Assembly: GCA_976551045.1 (NCBI GenBank)
Contig: CDPCPM010000281.1
Coordinates: 9,672,001-9,736,000, forward strand
Source of the DNA: Glaucostegus cemiculus
Taxonomy: Eukaryota
Direction of reading: 5' to 3'
Length of the DNA: 64,000 bases
Positions 7,346 to 10,789 of the stretch are shown here, piece by piece. Each line of letters begins with the position of its first letter. Position 1 is the first letter of the stretch. The position numbers and the translations under genes are program-made. The notes under the pieces were generated by a model. It saw only the letters and a program-made list of their open reading frames with translations, was not told the origin of the DNA and did not search any database.

Positions 7346-7640
7346 CACACTGAATGAGAAACGGGGAAAACGATGTAATCTTGGGTTATCCAGTGTATCC
7401 TTTGCAATTGAAGTACTGTATGGGTCTTGAAAGCAGAGGTACAGCTGGTCACTTTTGCATGATATAATGTTGCACAAACAAATCATCACAGACACATTTT
7501 CTGCTACCTTTAAGCCATATAGAAACTGCTATTCTCTGATAATTTGGGAGAATTCTGCCCAATATCGGTTGATTACAGTTCAGTGTATTGTAACTGGAAA
7601 GAAGATTGTGGATAAGCTGGAGACACCAAGTGATAAGAAT

Positions 7641-9092
7641 GTGGGGAAGATACTAGAATCGATCCTCAAGGACGAGATGATGGGATACTTGGAGGTGCAA
7701 GGCAAGATAGGTCCTAGTCAACATGGGTTCGTGAAGGGAAGATCCTGCCTGACCAATTTATTGGAGTTTTTTTAAGGAATCTCAGGCAGGGTGGACAAGG
7801 GAGAGGCCTGTATTTAGACTTTCAGAAGGCATTCGACAAGGTGCCGCACAAAAGACTAATTAGTAAGATGAGAGATCACGGAGTAACAGGCAGGATAACA
7901 GAATGGGTGGAGCGTTGGCTGGATGGCAGGAAACAGAGGGTGGGAATAAAAGTTTCCTGTTCTGGTTGGCTGCCGGTTACTAGTGGTGTTCCGCAGGGGT
8001 CGGTGTTGGGGCCCCTTCTTTTTACCTTGTATATTAATGACTTAGACAAAGGAGTTAATGGATTTGTGGCCAAGTTTGCGGATGACACTAAGATTGGGGG
8101 GGGAGTGGAGAGTAGTGAGGAGACAGGAAAGTTACAGAGAGACTTGGATAGTCTAGGAGAATGGGCGAAAAAATGGCAGATGAGGTTCAACGTGGAAAAA
8201 TGTGCAGTTGTACACTTCGGAAGTAGAAATAAACGGGCAGACTATTATCTAGAAGGAGATAAAATTGGAAGCACAGAAGTACAAAGGGACTTAGGGGTGC
8301 TCGTACAGGATAAACTAAAGGTTAACCGCCAGGTTGGATCGGCGGTAAGGAAAGCGAATGCTATGTTGGCATTTATTTTGAGGGGTATAGTATATAAAAG
8401 CAAGGAAGTGTTGATGAGGCTATACGGGGCACTGGTGAGGCCTCACTTGGAGTACTGTGTGCAGTTTTGGGCCCCATACCTTAGGAAGGATGTGCTGATG
8501 TTGGAGAGGGATTCCTGGGATGAAAAAGCTTGCATATGATGAGCGACTGTTGTCACTTGGACTGTACTCGTTGGAGTACAGAAGAATGAGAGGGGACCTA
8601 ATAGAAACGTACAAGATGTTGAAAGGAATGGACAAAGTGAATGTGGTCAAGCTGTTTCCCTTGGTGGGGGAGTCCAGGACTAGAGGACACAACCTCTAGT
8701 CCTGCATTGTCAACATAGTCAGCATTGAAACAACATTCTAATAAATTCTCTGGGGTTCTGCATTCCATAAGTTTATGAAGAATTTGGGAACATTAGAGGA
8801 AGCAGGTTCAAAACAGAGATAAGGAGGAATTTCTTTAGCCAGAGGGTGGTGAACCTGTGGAACTCCTTACCACAGAAAGCAGTGAAAGCCAGATCATTGG
8901 GGATATTCAGGAAGGAAATAGATAGATATCTAATTGGTCAAGGTATCAAGGGATATGGAGATAAGGCGGGGATTTGGACTTAGAATAGGTTTTTTTTCCT
9001 CTTATCCTCTTTTTCCCCACCCTCCCTTCCCTTTGGAGCAGACTCAATGGGCCGACTGGCCTGCTTCTGCTCCATTATCTTGTGATCTTGTG
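7641..9092 (+). mobile_element. Relatively young 5'-truncated CR1 (HER1-like) LINE with disrupted reverse transcriptase
   Basis: RT motifs SQHGFVKGRSCLTNL, GVPQGSVLGPLLF, KFADDTK and RPHLEYCVQFW. Stop/frameshift at about 7773, small deletions near 7808 and 8510, internal insertion at 8697-8796, terminal (atcttgtg)2 at 9077-9092. Confidence 0.95.
8713..8796 (+). repeat. 84-bp direct copy of 9414-9497 inserted into CR1 ORF2
   Basis: 83 of 84 nt identical to 9414-9497 by direct reading ('ctgcattcc' versus 'ctgctttcc'). Confidence 0.95.
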
Positions 9093-9413
9093 AATATTTT
9101 ATCATAATTTTTAAAGCTTTATTCTTTGTATTCAATCCAGGGTATGGATGTTACTGCCAAAGTCAGCAATTAATGCTCTTCCTTTTATAGCAATTGAAAA
9201 GGCTGTGGTATGATACATAAATTGGACAATTGTTTCAGAAAATAGCCTTACTTGAATGACTAATTCAATCTTACATTCTTAAATATCTTAAATATTTTTT
9301 TCAAGTAAATGTTTATTCCTCTTTAAAAGACTTTTAGGTGTTTAACTACAATTCTTTAGGTAATATGGTATAAATATGTTATAAGCTGTTGTTATATTTA
9401 GACTACTGTGGGG

Positions 9414-9497
9414 ACATAGTCAGCATTGAAACAACATTCTAATAAATTCTCTGGGGTTCTGCTTTCCATAAGTTTATGAAGAATTTGGGAACATTAG
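9414..9497 (+). repeat. Donor copy of the 84-bp duplicated segment (flanking DNA)
   Basis: 'acatagtcagcattgaaac...tttgggaacattag' also occurs at 8713-8796. Confidence 0.95.
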
Positions 9498-10789
9498 TCA
9501 GTAGGTAGATGACATCTATTGAAGTTGGACTGTGTTGGTAGAGTGTAAAGTGCCAATGTATTACTGAGGGAAGCTTCGCTGAAGCCAGTGAGCTCAGTAG
9601 TTTCCTAGTGGTACGTTTTTAAAGTTAGTTTTTCCTTGATACCTTCTCACACTAAAACAATGAAATGAAACATTTTGCTTCAGACTAGACTTATACTACG
9701 TGGGTTGATTTTTAAGTGTGATCTCAGTAAACAGGAGTGGTCCATTATATTATGCTTTTCTTTTTTAAAGATGACTTAGATCCCAAGTCATTCAAGTCTT
9801 TCGTGACATTGAGCACCTGATGTTGCTCTGCATTGGTGTAAGGGAGGCAGCATTATAATCATAAAGGTGTGTAACCGATTATATTTTGACCGGGAGGGTG
9901 GGAGGTTGGACAGTAGGACATGGCATGATGTTAGCTTGTTGGGAGGTAAAAGGGTGCAACAGCAGATTATCTGTTCAGCCAGGGACACAAGTTCCCTTCT
10001 AGTCTCCATCATCATTGCTGAAGAAAGTGAGATTTGTCGCTCTCGCAGCTGTTTGTCATCCTTCATTCACTAACAACCTTGTGTAAAAAATATTTTCTGC
10101 AATAAACAGATTTAATTCAGATTCAGCTCCATCATGAATAATTAAGTGGGCTGATGTGCAACCTCACAAACTGGTCGTTTTTTTTATGAAGCTGTCTCTA
10201 GAAATCCTGATCCAAGCATATTTTCTGGCAAGTATACCATGCCTTCATCAGAATTGTGCTGAATAAAGTGGGGAGGAAAATGTTGCTACATCCAGTTGTT
10301 TTTTTCATTTCTCACACAGGGGACTGACCCAAAGGTGGAAAATTAGCATTTGATTCCATGGCCCATTTCTGAGTAACATTGAGCTTTGCTTTTTCTTTAA
10401 AAGTGAATTTTGATTAGGCTGGCATGTAGAGTGCTTCCTAACTAGTAAAGATTCTCGTACAACCCAGATGAATACATTTACTGGCAACTTATAACCTTTG
10501 GACATGCCTGGGCTCAACCCATCTTCAGTACCACTGAGAAACCCTTGATGCAGGGGATCCTGGGGAGAACTTAGTCCTCTGTTGTATACTCAGGATTGTG
10601 TGGATGACATGGTAACTTTTGCCCAATGAAATTCGTTTCTAAAATTTAGTTTCAATAAAGTCAAAAGGAATGAATTTTGGAAGTGGAGATAAATGCTCAA
10701 ACATTACAATACATAAAGTCAGGGCACATTTTTGATTTTTTTCTTCACTCCACTACCCCGCTCCATCCACAATGGGATAATGGAGTGAA

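What the first reader, a model, noticed from the sequence alone, without database searches (positions are those of the whole stretch)
8675..9497. CR1 scar: snap-back hairpin plus an 84-bp templated insertion copied from 701 bp downstream
Seen: CR1 ORF2 runs to '...caggactagaggacacaacctc' and then becomes the reverse complement of its own preceding bases, giving a perfect 12-bp stem (8675-8686 with 8693-8704, 6-nt loop). An 8-nt linker follows (8705-8712), then an 84-bp direct copy (8713-8796, 83/84 identical) of non-CR1 flank at 9414-9497. The sequence rejoins CR1 through 'attag', which ends the donor and plausibly also begins the resumed CR1 'attagaggaagcagg'. Known: fold-back synthesis, locally templated inserts and junction microhomology are hallmarks of polymerase theta-mediated end joining and related template switching. 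Inference: this is a recent multi-switch repair event, or reverse-transcriptase template jumping onto target DNA during insertion. The near identity of the two copies makes it young.
Basis: partly seen in the sequence, partly recalled or inferred. Interest (0 to 1): 0.7.

Follow-up and report, generated by a model that had tools for sequence, protein, structure and literature searches.

The report
DNA-repair scar inside a young retrotransposon
A 96-base patch in one dead copy of a jumping gene consists of a short backward copy of the adjacent DNA, eight linker bases and a forward copy of DNA about 600 bases away, most likely the scar of an error-prone chromosome-break repair of a kind already catalogued in vertebrate genomes.

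Summary
The structure is real. The 84-mer has 2 matches in the 2.85-Gb genome, and the hairpin junction has 1. Sister copies of the element define the lesion: 96 nt gained (8696-8791) and 4 nt lost. Three of the 12 stem pairs are native, so only 9 nt are fold-back product, and ATTAG is a true 5-nt microhomology. It meets 4 of the 5 criteria I took from Pace et al. 2009 for a proximal repair-mediated duplication, class 'microhomology + deletion + filler'; the fifth (orthologous empty site) is open. Its order (reverse copy, then forward copy) matches complex germline MMB-TIs in humans. Strand polarity argues against a first-strand reverse-transcriptase jump. 'Young' is unsupported: 1/84 cannot be told from the element's own age. 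One outgroup contig lacks the donor's T, so the insert likely keeps the ancestral base, which also argues against misassembly. No contig spanned the junctions (low depth, inconclusive). One oddity: this copy has two more private deletions, more than its sisters predict (P about 0.01). The scan has reported similar scars in other genomes. Verdict: ordinary, a new member of a known kind.

The parts
7641..9093 (+). 5'-truncated CR1-type LINE copy (3' part of ORF2, 3' UTR, short TCTTGTGA-type tail), broken by frameshifts; about 1.4% from the majority of 14 long sisters
7808..7809 (+). private 10-nt deletion junction in the element, no microhomology
   Evidence: exact 24-nt junction pattern has 1 match in the genome
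8509..8510 (+). private 23-nt deletion junction in the element, 1-nt microhomology
   Evidence: exact 24-nt junction pattern has 1 match in the genome
8675..8683 (+). native element bases that are the template of the fold-back arm
8684..8695 (+). native 3-bp stem (AGG/CCT) with 6-nt loop: the inferred fold-back primer; 8695 is the last native base left of the lesion
   Evidence: not the minimum-energy fold of the unextended end, so a transient pairing is inferred
8696..8704 (+). 9-nt fold-back product, reverse complement of 8675-8683
8705..8712 (+). 8-nt linker; 7 of 8 bases lie in 6-7-nt matches to the donor, possibly aborted rounds of copying
   Evidence: P=0.04 (same strand, donor +-10 nt, k=6), 0.05-0.67 under the other settings, so suggestive only
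8713..8791 (+). direct copy of donor 9414-9492; carries A at 8762 where the donor has T
8792..8796 (+). ATTAG, 5-nt microhomology shared by the donor end and the resumed element
9414..9497 (+). donor: single-copy host flank starting 321 nt beyond the element's 3' end; orthologous sequence in an outgroup run
   Evidence: X5 contig with donor flanks as loose ends

Best explanation
This is a single-copy 96-nt replacement inside a dead CR1-type element, made of a 9-nt reverse copy of adjacent DNA, an 8-nt linker and a 79-nt forward copy of host flank closed by a 5-nt microhomology, and it most likely arose by germline repair of a double-strand break after the element had inserted. Inferred order, all on the top strand 5' to 3': (1) a break near 8695 loses 4 nt (1 nt on an alternative parse). 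(2) The left 3' end folds back through the native 3-bp AGG/CCT pairing and is extended by 9 nt. (3) The end unpairs, perhaps makes one or two aborted copies from the donor (the linker), then anneals to the bottom strand of the flank about 620-700 nt to the right, either on the long-resected right end or on the sister chromatid, and copies 84 nt. (4) The new 3' ATTAG anneals to the element's ATTAG on the right end, and gaps are filled and ligated. Pol theta is the likely enzyme for step 2; step 3 may be an SDSA/MMBIR-type extension. The donor base 9463 likely changed A to T afterwards. The patch is predicted to be inert. Shown: structure, gained and lost bases, single copy, microhomology. Inferred: order, enzyme, timing.
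For: Lost and gained bases from 29 of 29 sisters. No insertion of 10 nt or more at this site in 80 distinct sisters; 77 of 81 copies reach the site and read the plain junction. The 84-mer has 2 genome matches and the hairpin junction 1. Values fit the commonest class of Pace et al. 2009 (microhomology 2-9, deletion 1-15, filler 1-68 nt, donor under 5 kb; 10 of 39 proximal breakpoints; PMC2671141): here 5, 4, 17 nt and a 618-nt gap. Pol theta extends stem-loops from 2 terminal pairs (PMC11292364 abstract). Hairpin-primed inverted plus trans-templated direct inserts are the two TMEJ classes, and longer inserts need several rounds (PMC7165422 passages). The same reverse-then-forward order occurs in human germline event FG-16 (PMC8421209 section 10). 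The outgroup contig shows no T at the mismatch (0 of depth 37).
Against: TMEJ templates are typically within 30 bp and first tracts rarely exceed 10 bp, so the 84-nt, 600-nt-distant piece is atypical for Pol theta alone. The linker parse is weak: P 0.04 at best, and 10 of 272 control templates covered 7 or 8 bases. The 3-bp primer hairpin is not the predicted minimum-energy fold. Two more private deletions in the same copy exceed the sister rate (P=0.008-0.013), which a single isolated break does not explain. No allele 'element without insert' was seen, so 'after insertion' is not shown. The outgroup base rests on one contig, and 4 of its 5 differences were not listed.
Confidence: 0.62

Rival explanations
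1. Replication-fork template switching (MMBIR/FoSTeS type) without a two-ended break: the nascent top strand stalled at 8695, folded back, jumped to single-stranded template about 620 nt ahead, copied 84 nt and returned via ATTAG.
For: Same polarity and the same product. Complex germline MMB-TIs with up to five templates are known (PMC8421209). The native sequence is a weak quasi-palindrome here (CTAGAGG...CCTTAG). A long tract and a distant template suit a replicative mechanism.
Against: The small 4-nt loss plus filler plus terminal microhomology is the usual end-joining pattern. Nothing in the sequence demands a fork. The perfected hairpin does not recur in other copies (1 exact match), so the quasi-palindrome is no hotspot.
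Confidence: 0.18
2. Host polymerases damaged and patched the element during integration (second-strand synthesis or repair of the RNA/cDNA intermediate), producing the insert and the two deletions in one episode.
For: Three private lesions of 10 nt or more in 1.39 kb, against 8 in 82,291 sister bases; P of 2 or more besides the ascertained one is 0.008. All three junctions are single-copy. The insert cannot be dated younger than the element (P=0.32). Second-strand synthesis has the required polarity. LINE junction filler copied from flanks is known (PMC4245944 passages).
Against: Known integration-linked templates sit at the 5' junction or within 15 bp of the insertion site; this one is internal and starts 321 nt beyond the 3' end. 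Lesions also cluster in a sister (L017 has 2 of the 8 events), so the Poisson test overstates the excess.
Confidence: 0.12
3. Assembly or consensus artefact (chimeric read or mis-join).
For: No contig of X1/X2 crossed either junction. In X1 the donor contig (9338-9575) runs through without a break.
Against: The insert carries A where the adjacent donor and a second haplotype carry T, and the outgroup lacks T; a copy made from this assembly's donor would carry T. The junctions have a coherent biochemical anatomy. The window lies 9.7 Mb into a contig. X1 is another haplotype at depth about 4, and contigs next to a very high-copy repeat drop rare paths.
Confidence: 0.05
4. The element's reverse transcriptase jumped from its RNA to flanking target DNA and back during first-strand synthesis.
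For: ATTAG could prime a jump from cDNA onto the donor's top strand. L1 templated insertions under 250 bp exist (22 instances reported, 10.1101/2024.08.27.596794 passages).
Against: cDNA is made right to left, so the fold-back arm would be written before its template (antisense 8675-8683) existed, and that template is not on the RNA (inference from sequence order). Those L1 templates lie within 15 bp of the insertion site.
Confidence: 0.03

Closest known systems
Proximal repair-mediated duplication (RD), class MH+Del+Filler; Pace, Sen, Batzer, Feschotte 2009, PMC2671141 (parts 1-4 of 8 of the text read plus passages; supplements not read)
   Same: Transposon interrupted by 50 bp or more of sequence found at one other place, under 5 kb away, with microhomology, small deletion and filler, no poly(A) and no target duplication. 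824 such cases in human, 80 in zebrafish, 6 in chicken.
   Different: Here more than half of the filler resolves as hairpin-primed synthesis. That paper invoked SDSA and surveyed no cartilaginous fish (host group here is my recall from repeat types, not a call). An outgroup polarises the donor/acceptor mismatch.
Complex germline MMB-TI (MMBIR-type templated insertion), e.g. FG-16; Osia et al. 2021, PMC8421209 (passages and section 10 part 1 of 2 read)
   Same: Reverse copy of an upstream template, then forward copies from further templates, microhomology at switches, return to the original template; 33 and 26 complex events in two people.
   Different: Their search looked about 100 bp around the site; this donor was about 626 nt away.
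Pol theta templated insertions (TINS, SD-MMEJ snap-back); PMC7165422 and PMC5068794 (passages), PMC11292364 (abstract and outline), PMC2943611 (search listing only)
   Same: Inverted insert from a hairpin with a 2-3-bp primer, direct insert from the other end, several rounds, final longer microhomology.
   Different: Typical TINS are 3-30 bp with templates within about 30 bp; the 84-nt tract from over 600 nt away is far in the tail.
LINE integration-associated templated insertions and 5' extra nucleotides; 10.1101/2024.08.27.596794 and PMC4245944 (passages; bioRxiv supplements closed)
   Same: Host flank sequence under 250 bp inside or at a LINE copy.
   Different: Those templates lie within about 15 bp of the insertion site or at the 5' junction. 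This is internal, 321 nt beyond the 3' end, and has the wrong polarity for first-strand synthesis.

Membership tests
Repair-mediated duplication (Pace 2009) | Insertion of 50 bp or more splitting one transposon whose halves are collinear within 30 bp | tested here: met
   96 nt gained, 4 nt lost, 29 of 29 sisters
Repair-mediated duplication (Pace 2009) | Inserted sequence at exactly one other place, over 50 bp and under 5 kb away on the same chromosome | tested here: met
   2 matches of 2 candidates genome-wide (the search skips very common words); 618-nt gap
Repair-mediated duplication (Pace 2009) | No poly(A/T) tail and no target-site duplication of retroposition | tested here: met
   sequence of 8696-8796 against sisters
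Repair-mediated duplication (Pace 2009) | Microhomology 2-9 nt, deletion 1-15 nt, filler 1-68 nt | tested here: met
   5, 4 and 17 nt against Table 1 ranges
Repair-mediated duplication (Pace 2009) | Orthologous pre-insertion site (element present, insert absent) in a relative | tested here: inconclusive
   No such allele seen; sister copies stand in, as that paper allowed where no close genome existed
Pol theta TINS / SD-MMEJ | Inverted repeat of 5 bp or more from an adjacent hairpin with a short primer | tested here: met
   9 nt, 3-bp native primer, 6-nt loop
Pol theta TINS / SD-MMEJ | Templates typically within 30 bp, first tracts rarely over 10 bp | tested here: not met
   84-nt tract, donor about 626 nt from the break (norm)
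Pol theta TINS / SD-MMEJ | Genetic dependence on POLQ | not testable with these tools
   fixed genomic scar
Complex MMB-TI | Two or more templates, reverse then forward, microhomology at resolvable switches, return to the original template | tested here: met
   3-nt and 5-nt microhomologies; entry into the donor not resolved
Complex MMB-TI | Origin from a stalled fork or interrupted break-induced replication | not testable with these tools
   sequence cannot show it
LINE reverse-transcriptase templated insertion | Template within about 15 bp of the insertion site, or at the 5' junction | tested here: not met
   internal lesion; donor starts 321 nt past the 3' end
LINE reverse-transcriptase templated insertion | Order of pieces compatible with first-strand synthesis | tested here: not met
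   the inverted arm precedes its template in cDNA direction (sequence; inference)
CR1-clade LINE (host element) | Non-LTR reverse transcriptase, 5' truncation, short 3' tandem tail, many near-identical copies | tested here: met
   RVT_1; ends; 1970 first-look candidates
CR1-clade LINE (host element) | Phylogenetic placement in CR1 rather than a related clade | not tested

The most novel reading that the evidence does not exclude
The insert and the two private deletions are one clustered episode in which host Pol theta-type synthesis attacked a CR1 integration intermediate and reached over 600 nt into target flank. Young CR1 families in this 2.85-Gb genome would then be thousands of identical natural reporters of integration-coupled, long-range templated mutagenesis in a vertebrate germline.
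Probability: 0.12. Interest if true: 0.45.

Novelty: new member of a known kind. Interest (0 to 1): 0.17.

Why it matters
Little on its own: one likely neutral scar in a dead retrotransposon, of a class counted in the hundreds in other vertebrate genomes. It is a clean teaching example, because near-identical sister copies give the pre-break sequence to the base and an outgroup polarises the one mismatch. It would matter more if a genome-wide count showed that hairpin-primed, long-range templated inserts cluster with other lesions at integration, which would link retrotransposition to Pol theta-type mutagenesis in the germline.

Tried and rejected
Read support: contigs of X1, X2, X3, X4 on 7400-9800 and X1, X2, X4, X5 on 8670-8822 gave no record across either junction; 8706-8711 had no cover in any of the 4 runs. 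These are contigs at flank depth about 4 (X1) beside a repeat of summed depth over 100,000, so this is no evidence either way. Hairpin as a recurrent hotspot or inherited from a master copy: rejected, 1 exact match (copies with a mismatch would be missed). Deletions inherited from a defective master: rejected, 1 exact match each. Donor as a dispersed repeat: rejected. Linker fully templated: not shown, P from 0.04 to 0.67 across the ancestral-donor settings, and the k=6 result is the same with the present donor base. Target-site duplication of the element: at most a 3-4-nt (G)AAT overlap, not resolvable without the empty site. The two deletions are also 701 nt apart in present coordinates; this equals the insert-donor spacing but vanishes in pre-event coordinates, so I treat it as coincidence. 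Host gene context: 8 of the window's 20 long ORFs were scanned against Pfam, none matched. Earlier notes near this place: none. Literature: a search needing all six LINE/CR1 junction terms gave 0 papers; shark + CR1 + 'repair-mediated duplication' showed that phrase in 0 of the 12 listed of 510, a weak search that supports no claim of absence.

Full report
Observation. The window is G000:C281:9672001-9736000 of a 2.85-Gb assembly in 1511 contigs. The 84-mer has only these 2 matches in the genome, and the exact hairpin junction has 1.

Host element. 7641-9093 is a 5'-truncated non-LTR retrotransposon copy with an RVT_1 domain (E=1.6e-24; 1 of 3 frames scanned matched) and a short tandem 3' tail. 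The family is large (1970 first-look candidates, 40 scored). Against the majority of 14 long sisters the copy has 22 substitutions in 1361 columns, 3 of them alignment artefacts at the junction, so about 1.4%; the sisters range from 0.93 to 1.94%. 'CR1' and a shark/ray-like host are recalled labels, not call results.

What was gained and lost. All 29 sisters read TTAGAATTAG before the resumed sequence. Native sequence therefore runs to 8695, four bases (TAGA) are missing, 8696-8791 (96 nt) is new, and ATTAG (8792-8796) belongs to both donor and element. Three of the 12 stem pairs (AGG/CCT) are native and can serve as primer; 9 nt are new fold-back sequence. An alternative parse counts TAG at 8697-8699 as native, which makes the start a quasi-palindrome correction and the loss 1 nt. 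None of 80 distinct sisters has an insertion of 10 nt or more at this site. 77 of 81 copies reach the site and read the plain junction (that filter could not itself see an insert, could).

Polarity. Read 5' to 3' on the top strand the pieces fall in a workable order: fold-back on the strand just made, linker, forward copy using the bottom strand of the flank, then annealing at ATTAG. First-strand reverse transcription runs the other way and would have to write the inverted arm before its template existed, so a simple reverse-transcriptase jump fails. This is inference from the sequence. Published L1 templated insertions use templates within 15 bp of the site (10.1101/2024.08.27.596794, passages) and LINE filler sits at 5' junctions (PMC4245944, passages); this donor starts 321 nt beyond the element's 3' end.

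Linker. CTGCATT (8702-8708), GCATTG (8704-8709) and CAACAT (8711-8716) all occur in the donor, the first only if the donor had A at 9463. That suggests aborted rounds of copying followed by a slip back through ACAT. Enumerating all 8-mers gives P=0.04 (same strand, donor +-10 nt, k=6) and 0.05-0.67 under the other ancestral-donor settings, and 10 of 272 control templates did as well. It is suggestive, not shown.

Age. If the event were as old as the element copy, 2.35 differences would be expected, and 1 or fewer has P=0.32; the 95% interval for 1/84 is 0.03-6.5%. Run X1 holds a different haplotype (3 other letters and a 3-nt gap in four flank contigs of about 815 laid bases) and has T in the donor. 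One contig of X5, another organism, aligns over 75 nt with 5 differences, has the donor's flanks as loose ends, and shows no T at the mismatch (0 of depth 37, no other row at that place). The insert therefore likely keeps the ancestral A and the donor changed later, or a homologue bearing A was copied. Caveat: one contig, and 4 of its 5 differences were not listed. This argues against 'very recent' and against an artefact copied from this assembly's donor. The X5 contig extends 724 nt upstream of the match, further than the roughly 330 nt of flank before the element, so the element is likely absent there (inferred, not read).

Reads. No contig crossed a junction. With contigs only and flank depth about 4, this is inconclusive.

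Background and an oddity. In 80 distinct sisters (82,291 aligned bases) there were 17 indels of 10 nt or more. I dropped 6 homopolymer-run expansions and 3 events within 40 nt of the 5' end of the alignment, leaving 8: 7 deletions and 1 tandem duplication, and no non-tandem templated insert. Sisters were chosen by similarity at the 3' end, which biases against lesions there. This copy has three lesions in 1.39 kb, each junction single-copy; two or more besides the ascertained one has Poisson P=0.008, or 0.013 with 10 events. L017 carries 2 of the 8, so lesions are overdispersed and the excess is weaker than it looks. It leaves room for one clustered episode, perhaps at integration.

Comparison with what is known. 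Pace et al. 2009 (PMC2671141; parts 1-4 of 8 and passages read; supplements not read) used interrupted transposons to find exactly this: inserts of 50 bp or more with a single donor under 5 kb away, 824 in human, 80 in zebrafish, 6 in chicken. 'Microhomology + deletion + filler' was the commonest breakpoint class (10 of 39). Four of the five criteria I drew from it are met here; the orthologous empty site is untested. Osia et al. 2021 (PMC8421209; passages and section 10 part 1) describe human germline events that copy first in reverse and then forward. Pol theta extends stem-loops from two pairs (PMC11292364, abstract) and makes both inverted and direct inserts, though typically 3-30 bp from within 30 bp (PMC7165422, passages; PMC5068794, passages). 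So it works like Pol theta snap-back at its start, but the long distant tract fails the typical TINS range, and I file it as a repair-mediated duplication, not as a proven TMEJ product. The scan has noted similar scars in other genomes; those notes are unchecked leads.

Verdict. Real, likely inert, a new member of a known kind. Interest 0.17.

Noticed in passing
L017:876-945 (G000:C46): A sister element copy carries a 40-nt nested tandem duplication (a 30-nt unit repeated, then its last 10 nt again) and a 12-nt deletion about 165 nt further on: a second multi-lesion copy.
   Followed up: partly
window:7808-7809 and 8509-8510: Two private deletions (10 and 23 nt) in the same element copy, 701 nt apart in present coordinates, the same number as the insert-donor spacing; likely coincidence.
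   Followed up: partly
window:30538-30701: 42-nt inverted repeat (88%) with an 81-nt spacer; resembles a palindromic MITE-like repeat common in cartilaginous fishes (recalled, not tested).
   Followed up: no
window:14115-14463: Minisatellite, 31-nt unit, 11.2 copies, 88% matches.
   Followed up: no
window:7020-7330: An older, more diverged fragment resembling the 3' end of a related LINE lies about 300 nt upstream of the young copy, same strand (by eye; 21-nt 81% match).
   Followed up: no
window:8085-8095 and sisters L005, L072, L074, L089: A G-run in the element is expanded by 11-16 nt in 4 of 80 sisters, a slippage hotspot.
   Followed up: no
window:1-64000: GC skew is positive in 26 of 32 two-kb bins (cumulative +2.0), as in a long transcribed intron; no host exon was identified (8 of 20 long ORFs scanned).
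   Followed up: partly
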